From: Octopus vulgaris
Lineage: Eukaryota
NCBI GenBank assembly: GCA_951406725.2
Contig: OX597821.1
Location: 59,706,001-59,770,000 of the forward strand
Length of the DNA: 64,000 nucleotides
Direction of reading: 5' to 3'
A program made the position numbers. Of the stretch, positions 27,455-51,142 are shown in pieces (position 1 is the first letter of the stretch; the number at the start of each line of letters is the position of its first letter).

Positions 27455-30400
27455 GGTGATGACGACGATGATGATGATGACGATGACGACGACCATTTCT
27501 TTCGCACTTTGCCACAAGTATGTAACAAAAAGAAGCCTTGATTTTAATCCCCCATTGTTATTCCATTCACATCATGATACTTTATGTGAAATAGCCAAAT
27601 GAACACAGTATTGACTGGTATTTTATTTTATCGACCCTGAAAGGATACAAAGTAAACTTGACCTTGGCAGTATTTGAACTCGGTATAAGTAGCTCTAATA
27701 ATCCCGTTAATCCAAGGAAGAATATAGTCGATTGAACCAACTCCCGTACATGACAGTACTTATTTTATAACAGCTGCAGAGATGAAAGGCAATGTCAACA
27801 CCAAAGAAAAAAAGAAAAAAGAAAAACAGCAGATAAACTATAGTTTTGGATGATTAGAGAACTAAATAAGTTTAAACTATTAGCTTTGTCCTTGGGTTAT
27901 TGTATGTAGGATAAAACAGCAACAATATAAAATCTAGTCTTTGTGTCTGGCTTAGCACAGTATTTCGTTTATAGCTTTTCTCATTGTAAATAATAAACAG
28001 ATCATATTTTATACATCTTTTGTACTCTTTTTAATCCTGTTAACATAATGAAAACTGGATTATTTTAACCATTTAAATTAATATATTAAATTTCGTAACC
28101 GACTTTATTAACTTTCGGATTTGCTAAATAAATAAATCGTGTTAATGAGTGAGAAGTTACAGGTGAATTGATTAACTTAGAGCTACTACGATCAATAATA
28201 ACAGTTGTTAGCATCATCAGTTGACTACGTGTATCAATGTGAATTTAGGTAAACAGTTAAGACTTTTAGTTTAAAGCGTTAGTTTGTTCAAGTCAGTACT
28301 CTAGGTCAGGTCAGCGGACTATTGTCATATATTGAAGAGGATAACTATATTACGAGAGAGAAACTGCGTTACAATAGATCAATGAACTCATTAATTATTT
28401 CGTTTATTTATAATGTATATCATCGTCATGGTAATAAGGTAGTGTTCCAGAGGAAATAATTAACATCTAGACAACAAAATTAGAAATTACAGGTGGAAAA
28501 ATCTGACAGAGTCATAAATGAAGGAAGAATAATCGTTGATTCCTTTACGATATATGTATATATAAGACAAGACAAAAAAAAAAAAAGGAGCTCATGTAAA
28601 TGCAACACAGGAACAAGTTATACATCTAATCAATGGAGAAGAAAAAGCGTCCGTATGTTGGCTTTACCCTGTTATTTATAACAGTTGGTATTGTCATATT
28701 AATGATGTCTTTAGCTACAGATTACTGGGTGTGTGTCCATCCAAAACTCTTAATAGGAGAAAACAACGCAACAGATACACGGCGATACAGAGGTTCTATA
28801 CATTATGGACTATTCAGAGGTTGTATAATGCTGAACTACGGACTAGGGGATCGTTTGTCGAAAATAGTAGGTGAGAAATCTAAGGGTTTTCTACTCATTA
28901 TTATCGTTGTTATTTGTTTCCTTTTCAGATTTTACCAATTTCTTTTTAAAATATCTATGCAATCCAAATACTTTCAACTTGTTGAGTTTGAATTGTAAAA
29001 TGTTTAAGAGAACAACACAAAGTTTTTAAACTATATTAGTTCTCCTGATTACTTCACAGAAAACCTTTATTTTTGATAAATGTTAAGTGACGAGATTCCT
29101 TTCAATCTCCAATCATGAGCGCAGTTAATTGACAGTTGAACTCCTATCGCAGTCTTAGATTAATGAGAGCTTATCTCTTGCTGTGTAATGCTCACTACAA
29201 TTATATGTTTAAAACATCTCTTTTATCACAATTTGTTTAAATTAATTTGGGAGTGTTTAATATAATTCTCTCTAGAAGATAATAACATCTCGAAGTGTAT
29301 TCTCTGACGTTCTCAAAGTTTCCCCATCTATAATTATATGATCCTCGTATCTTTTCAACTGTTACCATTGTTAGTAGACACTGTGTGACCAAAAGTATAT
29401 GACAAGAAAAGAAAAACAAGGTTACGAATAAGTATAAAAAATAAAACAAATGAAATTATCTCTCTTCCCCTGCAGGGGTTAATGAAAGATAAATAATAAT
29501 CCAGCCTACCTACTCTAGACACCTATTAATTGTACATTCTGTATCTGGTTACTTCGGAGATTCTTTTCATTAATACACTCATCTAATTTGAACTAAAATA
29601 CCACATTCCAAATTGATGGATGAAAACTTTCCCAAATACACTTTAGGTATCGCGTATTTTCTCCGCACGTGCGGGGAACGAAATTTGCTTAAGAGATGCA
29701 AACCCAGGTCCAAAATGTTTTACGAAGTCGATTTTTTTTTTTTTTCATTCTTAATATCAAAACAAACACAGATATATATAATAGTAATAATTATTATTAT
29801 AGTTGGACATCGATCAAATCAGATAAATCCAATAATGAAAAGTTAGTGTTTCAAATCAATCCAAAAATATTTCTCCCCTCATTGGTTTTGGGGATGAAGA
29901 TTTTCAGAAGGATGTTCAATTCAAAGTATTTTCATTAGGGTTAGGGACAGGGCACTGGTAAACTACAAACAGGGAACAGGTTCTATTTGGACTTCACTGG
30001 TGTTTGTACAGCATATTTCGTTTTCCCATTCTTATAGAATTAAGATTTGTGTTAACATTAAATATTGCCTTAAAGACTTACATATTCTATAATGTTGGTT
30101 GTGTGACATATTACAGGGAAACATATATACACTGCACAGTCGCATTTCTCTGTCCAGAGACTTTGTACTGCAAGTTCCATATTGCAACACTAAATTCTTT
30201 AAAAAACTCCATATAAGAACTGGTGGCAGTTCCAATTATTATTGCTTTATTTCACTCTTGTTGTTAATCTTAAATCAATAGAAATTCAATGAAATAATGT
30301 TGTATTTTTGGAGACATATTATAAGACACAAGTCTACATTTTCTTATCACTAAAAACCCTTAATGTTTCATGTTTCTGTTAGAAAGAATTATCTAATGAA

Positions 30401-48505: not shown

Positions 48506-51142
48506 TACATATCTATAGGTAACGCTGGCGCCAGATGGGGCAAAATCGCGAGATATTCGTCGAACTCATACAAGCATTTAAAAGAAAACCAGACAACGAA
48601 TGATAAATACTTGTGTGCGCGGGTGCGCAGACGTGTGTGTTTGCGCGCGCGTATGTGAATGTGAATGTGTGTGTGTGTGAGAGAGAGAGAGAGACTGTGT
48701 GCGCGTGTTTTTGTGGAGATCTGTGAGTGTACGTGTTATCTGTTTTGCTCGATGGCACTTAGCTGTCCCCGCTACCACTTCTGTTCAGTATAAATTGCAT
48801 TGTGAAACTAGTTGACAATATAGGTCTGTTGAATGTAGTCCGGTCGATGTTAAGCAGGTGAGGCGGATGTGCTGAGCTGCGAATTACCTGATATTGTTCA
48901 ACTTGTGACGACATGTTATTGTGTCTGTGTGTGCGCAAGTGATAGTAAAACAAGTATTATTTAACATGTAGGCGAGGTCAGTCGTCTTCGTGACAGAATC
49001 TTATAAATTTATATCAACTGCAGCAACAATAATGATAGTTGTTACGAACTGTGTTCGAATCAGTAATCAGATATATCTATCAGCCACCTGCAGGCATTAG
49101 GATCAGGAACTTATTTGATAATAAACAAACTGTTAAAAGAAACAGCCAAAGGAATAATACAACTTCTAACCAACAGCAGAGCAGACGAATCATACATAAC
49201 TGGATATCCAAGATGGAAAAGACAAAACGTTGCTATGTTCGAGTAACTCTGTTCTTTGTACTCGTTGCATTTGCGTGTCTTTTTGCCTCTCTAACAACGG
49301 ATCACTGGGTGCAGGTTAATCCAGAAATTCATGTAGGCAACGTGACTGCTAATAAAACAACTGCATACATATATTTTGGCCTCTTCTCGGGCAGTCGTAA
49401 TCTTGATGTTGGGAATGGCGAGCGTATTAGAAGTCTCAAAGGTAAGAAAACTTATTATTTTGCAATGGTGATCTCCGAGAAGTTCCTTTGATTAACATCC
49501 TTTTATTCCTCTAGTTTTCTTGTTTCATCTCTTCTCATCCATTCTCCCCACTCCTTTAGGAAATTCTGAACAAACCGAAATGAATTTCATAGAGTAAAAA
49601 TTAATGTTGCAGTTTTAGTTTTAAGTGTTACAAAGAGATTACTTTACTATAAACTTCTTTTATTGCTTGTGTCAGGGGAGAGTCGTTTTCTTTTTGTGCC
49701 TTATAATTTAACACACACATCGGTAAAAGTTCCACTTATTTCTTATTTTTATTGGGATGTCAGATAAATACATTCGTTTTTGTTTTGTTTCATTTTTCTA
49801 CTTGACACTAAATCATCATGTTTGAAAAGAGGTAAAATTTATAGAAATTTCAGAAACGATGAACAAAAGTTGTAGAGAAAGAAGTGAGCTACAAAAAAGT
49901 AAACCTATAAAATACTATGATAAAAAAATAATGTGTTAATTCAAATAACATTGGTAAGAATTAAAATAAAACAGGAGGCGGGGGCCGAAAACTTTAAAGT
50001 GACAACCAAATACAAATCAATGAATGGGCGAAGGTACGCCGAAAACAGGTGGTCTGCATATTCTTTACCTCCGCCAATGAATATTGGAAAATTTATTATT
50101 GTTGTCGATACTGGGTGGGTTACCAAGCCTGCAATCAAATATCAAGTTCCGATAAATACACTTAATGAATTGTGTCTCTCGCATATGTTTTCACCTGTAA
50201 CAACAGGCTATCACATTTGTGTTAACAAACAATTATATTAAGCTTGAAACTTGTAAAATGAGTAGGAGAAAAATGCGTTTCTATATTATGTTTGGGATTT
50301 GTTGTGAGTCATCCCGGGTGTGTAAGGGAAGTTGAAATGAATCGGTTTTTTTCTATTTTTTATTTGAATCAAACATATTTTTCTAGTTCCTATGTGTTTT
50401 CAAACAGTATTTGAAAATTATATTTGTTCCATGAATACACACATGAAAATGGGGACACACACACAAAACATGCAGTTATACAGACTAAATCCTTTGATAC
50501 GGGTACACGATGTCATTCACTCACACAACCTACCCTCATGACACAGATAAAGAGGCTAGGCTGAAAAAAGATGGTTAATGACGTTTTCTCCTGATACCTA
50601 TTTCTTTATTACCCACAAGAGGCTAAACACAGAGGGGACAAACAAGGACAGACATAAGTATTAAGTCGATTACATCGACCCCGAAAGGATGAAAGGCAAA
50701 GTCGACCTCGGTGGAATTTGAACTCACACGTAACGACAGACGAAATACGGCTACGCATTTCGCCCGGCGTGCTAACGTTTCTGCCAGCTCGCCGCCTTGT
50801 TTTCTCCTTATACCTATTTTTTACTACCCACAAGGGGCTAAACACAGAGAGGACAAACAAGGACAGACAAACGGATTAAGTCGATTACATCGACCCCAGT
50901 GCGTGACTGGTACTTAATTTATCGACCCCGAAAGGATGCAAGGCAAAGTCGACCTCGGCGGAATTTGAACTCAGAACATAAAGACAGACGAAATCCCGCT
51001 AAGCATTTCGCCCGGCCTGCTAACGATTCGGCCAGCTCGCCGCCTTGTTTTCTCCTTATACCGACATCCGTATACCTGTACCGAAGGATCACCTACACAA
51101 ACAGACGCATGCGCGTACACGCACATACATATACATGTTACG

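What the first reader, a model, noticed from the sequence alone, without database searches (positions are those of the whole stretch)
28633..49441. Two intact paralogous clarin first exons 20.6 kb apart with no visible downstream exons between them: candidate variable-first-exon clarin locus
Seen: two ATG-initiated exons on the same strand encode TM1 and the first extracellular loop of a clarin. They are about 40% identical (32/79 by hand), free of stops and frameshifts, each has its own repeat-free upstream region, and each ends in a phase-1 GT donor at the equivalent position. In the intervening 20 kb I found only repeats and no TM2-TM4 exon (no NPY/KPIET..GP.GLY.WN-type motif). Known: vertebrate clarins (CLRN1-3) are tetraspans of mechanosensory hair cells, and CLRN1 exon 1 also ends in phase 1. 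Inference: the two exons could be alternative promoters spliced onto shared downstream exons, as in vertebrate clustered protocadherins or UGT1A. That would diversify the extracellular loop of a sensory membrane protein in a cephalopod.
Basis: partly seen in the sequence, partly recalled or inferred. Interest (0 to 1): 0.8.

Follow-up and report, generated by a model that had tools for sequence, protein, structure and literature searches.

The report
Octopus clarin gene, two first exons
One octopus clarin gene has two alternative first exons that each encode the first membrane helix and the outer loop, an arrangement already present in automated annotations of related octopuses and familiar from vertebrate claudin genes.

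Summary
Window 28633-28870 (exon 1A) and 49213-49441 (exon 1B), both on the + strand, are intact ATG-initiated clarin first exons. They are 42% identical (E 6e-20), and each ends in a phase-1 GT donor. No other clarin exon lies anywhere in the 64 kb, by tblastn or by profile search.

RefSeq already models "isoform X1" (1A-type) and "isoform X2" (1B-type) in Octopus sinensis and O. bimaculoides. Within each species the two isoforms share an identical 150-residue tail. That means shared downstream exons, which must lie more than 14.5 kb beyond exon 1B, outside the window.

AlphaFold models of both isoforms (pLDDT 88) show that exon 1 encodes TM1 plus the whole beta-sheet of extracellular loop 1. 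So a complete structural module is swapped.

Only two variable exons exist, and no shared upstream element was found. The closest parallel is therefore CLDN10a/b and CLDN18.1/18.2 in the same fold superfamily, not protocadherin or UGT1A arrays.

Exon 1B evolves about five times faster than 1A between the two species. I saw no transcript data, so promoter independence and tissue use remain untested. This is an ordinary gene architecture: a new, undescribed member of a known kind.

The parts
28633..28870 (+). Clarin exon 1A: start codon, TM1 and the whole beta-sheet of extracellular loop 1 (79 codons plus the first base of a split Val codon). It carries one N-glycosylation sequon (N45-A-T).
   Evidence: 94% identical to O. 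bimaculoides isoform X1; 78/79 identical to O. sinensis isoform X1; HMM E 3.9e-33; structure mapping; sequon.
28871..28876 (+). 5' splice donor of exon 1A (GTGAGA), phase 1.
   Evidence: Read-through models of other octopods (P0008, P0029) continue '...GEK', which is the same G|GTGAGAAA translated.
27682..28632 (+). Unique sequence upstream of exon 1A, the presumed promoter and 5' UTR. There is a TATA-like TATATAT at 28557 and an in-frame TAA at 28627, two codons before the ATG. No acceptor-like AG is present.
   Evidence: Promoter function is inferred, not shown.
28871..49212 (+). The 20.3 kb interval between the exons. It is intron for the 1A isoform and upstream region for 1B. It contains no clarin exon. 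It holds a mariner/Mos1-type transposase remnant at 42680-43581, 65-66-bp-unit repeats and TA-rich microsatellites.
48510..49212 (+). Unique sequence upstream of exon 1B, the presumed second promoter and 5' UTR. No acceptor-like AG lies within 300 nt of the ATG.
   Evidence: Promoter function is inferred, not shown.
49213..49441 (+). Clarin exon 1B: start codon, TM1 and the ECL1 beta-sheet (76 codons plus the first base of a split Val codon). It carries two sequons (N43-V-T and N47-K-T).
   Evidence: 100% identical to O. vulgaris CAI9726900.1 = O. sinensis XP_029640342.1; HMM E 2.7e-29; structure.
49442..49447 (+). 5' splice donor of exon 1B (GTAAGA), phase 1.
   Evidence: The read-through model P0065 continues '...GKK', which is G|GTAAGAAA translated.
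49442..64000 (+). The first 14.6 kb of the intron that leads to the constant exons. The constant exons are not in the window. This stretch contains a Tc1-like transposase remnant at 52273-53203.

Best explanation
The window holds the 5' end of a single clarin-family gene of an Octopus of the vulgaris/sinensis group. The gene has two alternative, paralogous first coding exons, 1A and 1B, which arose by tandem exon duplication within cephalopods. Each exon has its own ATG and no upstream acceptor, so each is most likely transcribed from its own promoter (inferred). Each exon ends with a G in phase 1. That G joins the same first constant exon, which lies beyond base 64000, to make a Val codon (…KIV-V-SQNIKD… and …SLK-V-SQNIKD…). 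The products are two tetraspan proteins of 229 and 226 aa. They are identical from the short extracellular helix before TM2 to the C-terminus. They differ in TM1 and the entire five-stranded ECL1 beta-sheet. Structurally related tetraspans (TARPs, GSG1L, LHFPL4, claudins) use the extracellular head to contact partners. The swap therefore probably changes partner or cell-type specificity while keeping the TM2-TM4 core (inferred). Shown here: the exons, their phase and their paralogy; the absence of other clarin exons in 64 kb; identical tails in two species' isoform pairs; and the fold mapping. Inferred: independent promoters, mutually exclusive use, and functional difference.
For: Paralogy is 33/78 identities, E 6e-20. 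Only two exon-1 hits and no constant-part hit occur in the six-frame window. For database isoforms, 1A finds O. bimaculoides 'clarin-2 isoform X1' (94%) and Argonauta hians clarin-2-like (70%); these are 2 hits among 31 candidates. 1B finds O. vulgaris CAI9726900.1 / O. sinensis 'clarin-3 isoform X2' (100%) and O. bimaculoides 'clarin-2 isoform X2' (77%); these are 2 hits among 37 candidates. Tails are 150/150 identical within O. sinensis and within O. bimaculoides, against 139/150 between species. The full-length isoforms pass the Pfam Clarin-2 cutoff of 27 bits, at 65.5 and 52.5 bits. The AF2 models have pLDDT 87.9 and 88.0 and pTM 0.82. The exon-1 boundary falls at the end of the last ECL1 strand, residue 79 in one and 76 in the other. 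Foldseek finds claudin-superfamily auxiliary subunits (LHFPL4/GARLH4, GSG1L, TARPs, claudin-4, MP20), with E from 6e-7 and target-normalised TM-scores of 0.6-0.7 for the single-protein chains. No AG preceded by a tract of at least 70% pyrimidines lies within 300 nt upstream of either ATG, and a stop lies two codons before the 1A ATG. Both exon types are kept intact with conserved donors in further taxa (P0029 is A-like, P0065 is B-like). In the exon-1 tree the A clade (97/93) and B clade (92/95) are distinct within a cephalopod clade (84/88).
Against: I saw no RNA evidence. The X1/X2 proteins are predicted models, and a gene predictor could chain an orphan exon to the nearest compatible acceptor. 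The constant exons are outside the window, so the shared acceptor was not seen. The O. vulgaris annotation in the database carries only the 1B isoform. Exon 1B alone gives no Pfam clarin hit. It evolves faster than 1A and faster than the tail: 18/76 against 4/79 and 11/150 differences, Fisher p 0.001 for each comparison. That could mean relaxed constraint. No promoter was demonstrated; the TATA-like string before 1A lies in an AT-rich, microsatellite-prone stretch.
Confidence: 0.8

Rival explanations
1. There is one promoter. A non-coding leader exon further upstream is spliced in a mutually exclusive way to 1A or 1B, so these would be alternative internal exons rather than alternative first exons.
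For: Transcription start sites were not observed. The reading frame of 1B stays open for 58 codons upstream of its ATG, to the in-frame TAG at 49036-49038.
Against: No AG with a pyrimidine tract of at least 70% lies within 300 nt upstream of either ATG, and the sequence before 1A is A-rich. The test is a crude pyrimidine count, not a trained splice-site model.
Confidence: 0.07
2. Only one of the two exons is really used. The other is an orphan or decaying duplicate, and its isoform model is an annotation artefact.
For: I saw no transcripts. 1B evolves about five times faster than 1A and alone has no Pfam clarin hit. The only O. vulgaris protein I retrieved carries 1B, and the only Argonauta hians model I retrieved carries 1A.
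Against: Both exons are intact ORFs with consensus donors in the window. 1A is 75/79 and 1B is 58/76 conserved between O. sinensis and O. bimaculoides without stops. A further unnamed record carries each type with the donor preserved (P0029, P0065). Residues invariant across the family (W32, G59 and the T-D-x-W and G-L-F-x-G motifs) are kept in both. Both isoforms fold with equal confidence. Each exon is the one chosen by at least one independent annotation.
Confidence: 0.08
3. These are two ordinary tandem paralogous clarin genes, each with its own downstream exons.
For: Tandem duplication is common, and sequence beyond base 64000 was not available.
Against: No constant-part exon lies in the 20.3 kb between the exons or anywhere else in the window. 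The isoform tails are 150/150 identical within each of two species, although the tails differ at 11/150 between species and the first exons are only 42% identical.
Confidence: 0.03
4. An assembly misjoin or collapsed duplication created the apparent arrangement.
For: The region is repeat-rich and has a few near-identical local duplications, for example 46427-46627 (2 x 101 nt at 100%).
Against: There is no N in the window. The two exons are only 42% identical at the protein level and share no detectable nucleotide similarity, so they are not a recent or artefactual copy. Both types are reported from one chromosome-scale contig in O. bimaculoides, the same longest-contig length of 97,793,173 for both.
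Confidence: 0.02

Closest known systems
RefSeq gene models: O. sinensis clarin isoforms X1/X2 (XP_029640341.1 / XP_029640342.1) and O. bimaculoides clarin-2 isoforms X1/X2 (XP_052825960.1 / XP_014786516.1)
   Same: This is the same locus or its orthologue. X1 starts with the 1A-type exon and X2 with the 1B-type exon, and the tails are identical. The window's 1B is 76/76 identical and its 1A is 78/79 identical to the O. sinensis pair.
   Different: The window's 1A has Cys where O. sinensis has Gly at residue 64. The only O. vulgaris protein the searches returned (CAI9726900.1) is the 1B form. These are automated predictions, and my literature searches found no paper that describes them.
Claudin-10a/10b and claudin-18.1/18.2 (vertebrate claudin genes with two alternative first exons)
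   Same: They belong to the same fold superfamily, a four-helix tetraspan with an ECL1 beta-sheet (Foldseek hits to claudin-4, -3 and -19). Each gene gives two isoforms that differ in the first exon. Cldn10a/b 'differ in their first exon' and form anion- versus cation-selective channels (PMC7642450, passages read). CLDN18.1/18.2 come from lung and stomach alternative promoters (PMC11178514, passages read).
   Different: They are a different family (claudin, not clarin) and phylum. That claudin exon 1 encodes TM1 plus ECL1 is recalled, not taken from a call. Tissue specificity and functional difference are shown for the claudins and untested here.
Clustered protocadherins and UGT1A (variable first exons joined to constant exons)
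   Same: The formal architecture is the same. Tandem paralogous first exons lie on one strand, each has its own ATG, and each has a donor joined to shared constant exons (architecture recalled from general knowledge).
   Different: Neither the models I retrieved nor this 64 kb window hold more than two variable exons, against roughly 9 to 58 in those clusters (number recalled). The two upstream regions share no conserved sequence element. The variable part here is one TM helix plus a loop of about 50 residues, not a whole ectodomain or substrate-binding domain. Nothing suggests stochastic choice.
Vertebrate clarins (CLRN1-3)
   Same: Both full-length isoforms score above the cutoff of Pfam Clarin-2-like PF25807. 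They have four TM helices and N-glycosylation sequons in ECL1, as does human CLRN1, whose single site is N48 (PMC2742642, passages read).
   Different: Sequence identity is low. The RefSeq names clarin-2 and clarin-3 are best-hit labels, not orthology. CLRN1 has several splice variants, and its main one uses exons 0, 2 and 3. I found no report of paralogous alternative first exons in any clarin (5 papers held both terms, none on this by title).

Membership tests
Clarin family (Pfam PF25807, Clarin-2-like) | Profile match above the curated cutoff of 27 bits | tested here: met
   The full-length database isoforms carrying these exons score 65.5 bits (P0007, 1A-type) and 52.5 bits (P0005, 1B-type). 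The exons alone do not pass: 1A scores 25.2 bits (E 1.8e-5), just under the cutoff, and 1B gives no clarin hit.
Clarin family (Pfam PF25807, Clarin-2-like) | Four transmembrane helices with a beta-sheet first extracellular loop (claudin-like tetraspan fold) | tested here: met
   AF2 models: the helices are 6-28, 92-121, 131-160 and 185-206, and five strands span 33-79 (pLDDT 87.9, pTM 0.82). The 1B isoform has the same layout. Foldseek finds LHFPL4, GSG1L, TARPs, claudins and MP20.
Clarin family (Pfam PF25807, Clarin-2-like) | N-glycosylation sequon in ECL1 (as N48 of human CLRN1) | tested here: met
   1A has N45-A-T. 1B has N43-V-T and N47-K-T. The CLRN1 site is taken from PMC2742642. The Argonauta 1A-type has no sequon, so the feature is not universal.
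Clarin family (Pfam PF25807, Clarin-2-like) | Expression and function in mechanosensory hair cells or photoreceptors | not testable with these tools
   No expression data were available.
Variable-first-exon locus (protocadherin / UGT1A kind) | Tandem paralogous first exons on one strand, each with its own ATG and a donor of the same phase | tested here: met
Variable-first-exon locus (protocadherin / UGT1A kind) | All variable exons joined to one shared set of constant exons | tested here: met
   The test is indirect. Tails are 150/150 identical in the X1/X2 pairs of two species, and there are no constant exons between the variable exons. The acceptor itself lies outside the window, and no transcripts were seen.
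Variable-first-exon locus (protocadherin / UGT1A kind) | A separate promoter before each variable exon | not testable with these tools
   The sequence is consistent with this: no acceptor-like site lies upstream of either ATG, and about 0.7-0.95 kb of unique sequence lies upstream of each. No start-site data exist.
Variable-first-exon locus (protocadherin / UGT1A kind) | A conserved promoter element shared by the variable exons (as the protocadherin conserved sequence element; recalled) | tested here: not met
   blastn with word size 7 of 26633-30870 against 47213-51441 finds only interspersed-repeat and microsatellite matches.
Variable-first-exon locus (protocadherin / UGT1A kind) | A large array of variable exons | tested here: not met
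   There are two exon-1 hits in 64 kb, and each of two species has only X1 and X2 among the models I retrieved. Sequence upstream of base 1 was not available.
Two-isoform alternative-first-exon tetraspan (CLDN10a/b, CLDN18.1/18.2 kind) | Two first exons that each encode TM1 plus ECL1 of a claudin-fold protein | tested here: met
   The exon boundary maps to the end of the last ECL1 strand in both models.
Two-isoform alternative-first-exon tetraspan (CLDN10a/b, CLDN18.1/18.2 kind) | Tissue-specific promoter use and functionally distinct isoforms | not testable with these tools
   No expression or functional data were available.
Tandem paralogous genes | Each first exon followed by its own complete set of downstream exons | tested here: not met
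   no constant-part exon in the window; identical tails.

The most novel reading that the evidence does not exclude
Octopods keep an old pair of promoter-linked TM1+ECL1 modules in their only close clarin gene: a conserved 1A module and a fast-evolving 1B module. The pair arose within cephalopods and possibly predates the Octopus-Argonauta split. The two modules would fit one tetraspan core to different partners or sensory cell types, for example statocyst hair cells versus sucker or skin mechanoreceptors. This would be the first module-swapping clarin, and it would be convergent with claudin-10a/b.
Probability: 0.3. Interest if true: 0.5.

Novelty: new member of a known kind. Interest (0 to 1): 0.3.

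Why it matters
Clarins are needed for hearing and vision in vertebrates, yet their molecular partners are poorly defined. A natural pair of isoforms that swaps exactly TM1 and the ECL1 sheet on a constant core could serve as a built-in experiment on what that head does. It could also give a marker pair for sensory cell types in cephalopods. On the practical side, the only O. vulgaris protein I retrieved is the 1B form, so exon 1A at 28633-28870 may be missing from that annotation. As a genomic architecture it is ordinary. Alternative first coding exons from tandem exon duplication are common, and this case is already in RefSeq for two sister species.

Tried and rejected
(1) I searched for a third exon 1 and for divergent TM2-TM4 exons in all six frames, using tblastn (word size 2, E up to 10) and HMMs of both parts. 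Nothing was found.

(2) I looked for a conserved element shared by the two upstream or downstream flanks. Only interspersed repeats and microsatellites matched. The exons themselves are not alignable by blastn.

(3) I tried to date the duplication. The ML tree of exon-1 parts puts Argonauta inside the A clade and B outside it. But an AU test does not reject a tree with all Octopus-type A and B rows together excluding Argonauta (p 0.24), nor one with A and B as sisters (p 0.377). The timing is unresolved.

(4) The word-indexed profile search for further named cephalopod clarins returned only 7 proteins with E at or below 0.001, out of 8000 scored candidates: the four known octopod clusters and three unnamed ones. 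No squid, cuttlefish or Nautilus names were obtained.

(5) Literature searches gave nothing on octopus clarin. 'clarin'+'octopus' found 20 papers (15 listed), and word-start matching also picks up 'clarinet'. 'clarin'+'cephalopod' found 3, and the one I opened, PMC9282427, refers to Clarinet/CLA-1. 'clarin'+'alternative first exon' found 5, none relevant by title. 'claudin-10'+'exon 1a'+'exon 1b' found 0.

(6) Rfam at gathering scores and ARAGORN on the whole window both returned 0.

(7) Pfam on all 142 stop-to-stop ORFs of at least 80 aa found only transposase remnants above cutoff.

No eukaryotic genome or read collection was on hand, so the flanks beyond the window, the orthologous loci and the transcripts stayed unchecked.

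
Full report
**What is in the sequence**

Two ATG-initiated open segments lie on the + strand. Neither contains a stop.
- Exon 1A runs 28633-28870 (238 nt, 79 codons plus one base). It is followed by GTGAGA.
- Exon 1B runs 49213-49441 (229 nt, 76 codons plus one base). 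It is followed by GTAAGA.

Both donors are therefore phase 1 and sit at the equivalent alignment position. The two peptides are 33/78 identical (42%), E 6e-20.

**Is it more than chance, and is anything else there**

I built an HMM of the exon-1 part of 22 family members. I searched it against all 2775 six-frame pieces of at least 15 aa from the window. It hits only these two segments (E 3.9e-33 and 2.7e-29). The next hit is E 0.02, on a hydrophobic low-complexity run.

An HMM of the constant part (17 members) has no hit better than E 1.2. tblastn of four full-length octopod clarins gives nothing beyond the two exons better than E 0.14. One of those four is 100% identical to exon 1B, so its own downstream exons would match perfectly if present.

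So there is no TM2-TM4 exon between the two first exons. There is also none in the 14.6 kb after exon 1B, and no third first exon in the 28.6 kb before exon 1A.

**What it belongs to**

I searched the exons one at a time.
- Exon 1A finds O. bimaculoides 'clarin-2 isoform X1' (229 aa, 94% identical) and Argonauta hians 'clarin-2-like isoform X1' (230 aa, 70%). These are 2 hits among 31 candidates.
- Exon 1B finds a 226-aa protein that is 100% identical. It is both O. vulgaris CAI9726900.1 and O. sinensis XP_029640342.1, 'clarin-3 isoform X2'. It also finds O. bimaculoides 'clarin-2 isoform X2' (77%). These are 2 hits among 37 candidates.
- The cluster of the first hit also contains O. sinensis XP_029640341.1, 'clarin-2 isoform X1'. 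Its first 79 residues match the window at 78/79.

The window thus comes from an Octopus of the vulgaris/sinensis group.

**The key result**

Within O. sinensis the X1 and X2 proteins are identical over all 150 residues that follow exon 1. The same holds within O. bimaculoides. Between the two species the tails differ at 11 of 150 positions.

The first exons are only 42% identical. Identical tails within each species therefore mean the same downstream exons, not a second gene copy. Each exon leaves a G that completes a Val codon, and both isoforms read …V-SQNIKDM… at the junction.

Each exon is also the one used in at least one other annotation: 1B in O. vulgaris and 1A in Argonauta. I saw no transcript evidence myself. 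These are predicted proteins.

**First exon or internal exon**

Within 300 nt upstream of either ATG there is no AG preceded by a 20-nt tract of at least 70% pyrimidines. An in-frame TAA lies two codons before the 1A ATG.

By within-window self-similarity, 27682-28632 and 48510-49212 are unique sequence. This fits two promoters but does not show them. The two flanks share no unique element, only interspersed repeats and microsatellites.

**What the variable part is**

The full-length isoforms pass the Pfam Clarin-2-like cutoff of 27 bits, at 65.5 and 52.5 bits. Alone, exon 1A scores 25.2 bits and exon 1B has no clarin hit.

I made AlphaFold2 models with a 44-row alignment. They give pLDDT 87.9 and 88.0, and pTM 0.82 for both. 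The 1A isoform has this layout:
- TM1 at residues 6-28.
- Five beta-strands at 33-79.
- A short helix at 80-87.
- TM2 at 92-121, TM3 at 131-160 and TM4 at 185-206.

The 1B isoform has the same layout, with its last strand ending at residue 76. Exon 1 thus encodes exactly TM1 plus the whole ECL1 sheet.

Foldseek against the PDB returns claudin-superfamily tetraspans. They include GARLH4/LHFPL4 on GABA-A receptors, GSG1L and TARPs on AMPA receptors, claudin-4, -3 and -19, and MP20. E-values start at 6e-7, and target-normalised TM-scores are about 0.6-0.7 for the single-protein chains.

I recall that these proteins engage partners partly through the extracellular head. From that I infer that the swap alters partner or cell-type specificity on a constant TM2-TM4 core. 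This is inference only.

Both exons carry N-x-S/T sequons in the loop: N45 in 1A, and N43 and N47 in 1B. Human CLRN1 likewise has a single site, at N48 (PMC2742642, passages).

**Evolution**

A full HMMER scan of 1.84 billion representatives finds 367 family members at E up to 0.001. Some are short read-through models of exon 1 from unnamed records:
- P0029 is A-like.
- P0065 is B-like.
- P0075 and P0080 are a third cephalopod type, whose full-length form is P0162.

Their read-through residues (…GEK, …GKK) are the translated donors, so the donors are conserved.

In an ML tree of the exon-1 parts (22 rows, 86 columns) the cephalopod exons form one clade (84/88). It has three groups: A including Argonauta (97/93), B (92/95), and P0162/P0075 (99/97). 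Their order is unresolved.

AU tests do not reject a duplication after the Argonauta split (p 0.24). The duplication is therefore cephalopod-specific, but its date is open.

Between O. sinensis and O. bimaculoides, exon 1B differs at 18/76 positions. Exon 1A differs at 4/79 and the tail at 11/150. Fisher p is 0.001 for 1B against either. Without nucleotide sequences from a second species I cannot say whether this is relaxed or positive selection.

**Surroundings**

Pfam on all 142 stop-to-stop ORFs of at least 80 aa gives only transposon remnants above cutoff:
- A mariner/Mos1-type remnant at 42680-43581.
- A Tc1-like remnant at 52273-53203.

A 316-codon open frame at 20910-21857 (minus strand) looks like the tail of a non-LTR retrotransposon. 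Its Pfam RVT_1 match is only E 0.042, and the Atlas gives a lead only.

Of the 20.3 kb between the exons, 40% is repeated elsewhere in the window. There are no Rfam families and no tRNAs.

**Comparison with what is known**

The arrangement is formally a variable-first-exon locus. But it has two members, no shared promoter element was found, and the variable part is small.

The nearest described parallel is in the same fold superfamily. Cldn10a and Cldn10b 'differ in their first exon' and have opposite ion selectivity (PMC7642450, passages). CLDN18.1 and CLDN18.2 come from lung and stomach promoters (PMC11178514, passages).

I found no paper on octopus or cephalopod clarin, and none on paralogous alternative first exons in any clarin. 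The library lacks most subscription journals, and supplements were closed.

**Verdict**

It is overstated in the protocadherin/UGT1A analogy.

This is a new, undescribed member of a known kind, and it is already present in automated annotation. Interest is about 0.3.

The open points are transcripts, start sites, tissue use, the date of the duplication and the meaning of the fast 1B rate. All of them need data that were not available here.

Noticed in passing
window 42680-43581 (+): A mariner/Mos1-type transposase remnant split over frames. HTH_48 scores E 3.4e-10 at 42680-42925, and Transposase_1 scores E 7.7e-15 at 43186-43581. It lies in the interval between the two clarin exons and is flanked by long TA-rich microsatellites at 42186-42557 and 43828-44400.
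   Followed up: partly
window 52273-53203 (+): A Tc1-like transposase remnant in two overlapping frames, downstream of exon 1B. HTH_Tnp_Tc3_2 scores E 6.3e-17 and DDE_3 scores E 3.6e-11.
   Followed up: partly
window 20910-21857 (-): A 316-codon open frame with no Pfam hit above cutoff. Only the very end of RVT_1 matches weakly (E 0.042), and the ESM Atlas nearest clusters are unnamed eukaryotic proteins, one of them 10% RVT_1. It is probably the 3' part of a non-LTR retrotransposon ORF, but this is not established.
   Followed up: partly
window 586-820, 13573-13868, 32909-33204, 36903-37034, 59816-60050: An interspersed repeat family built of 65-66-bp units (consensus begins GGTGCTTTTTACATGCCACC…), with 2-4 units per site. 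300-nt copies at 13402, 32737 and 36732 are 86-88% alike. The copy at 59816 is in the opposite orientation. No tRNA or Rfam match.
   Followed up: no
window 46427-46627; 21972-22219 / 22508-22755; 40684-40874 / 41049-41239; 2227-2526 / 5130-5429: Very similar local direct repeats: 2 x 101 nt at 100%, 248 nt at 99%, 191 nt at 97%, and 300 nt at 96%. They could be young duplications, terminal repeats of elements, or assembly stutter.
   Followed up: no
window 28633-28870: The only O. vulgaris protein that the searches returned for this gene (CAI9726900.1) is the 1B isoform. No O. vulgaris protein with exon 1A was found, so 1A may be unannotated in that genome. The window's 1A has Cys64 where O. 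sinensis X1 has Gly.
   Followed up: partly
window 49039-49212: The reading frame of exon 1B stays open for 58 codons upstream of its ATG. There is no in-frame ATG and no acceptor-like site there, so this is probably chance.
   Followed up: partly
protein P0015 (Liolophura sinensis XP_064603651.1): A chiton clarin is named 'clarin-3-like isoform X2', which hints that isoform pairs may exist in other molluscs. Its X1 partner was not retrieved, so I do not know whether they differ in exon 1.
   Followed up: no
exon 1B versus exon 1A, proteins P0005/P0006 and P0007/P0003: Exon 1B differs at 18/76 positions between O. sinensis and O. bimaculoides, against 4/79 for exon 1A and 11/150 for the shared tail (Fisher p 0.001). 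Seven of the 18 changes fall in TM1, at residues 7-21.
   Followed up: partly
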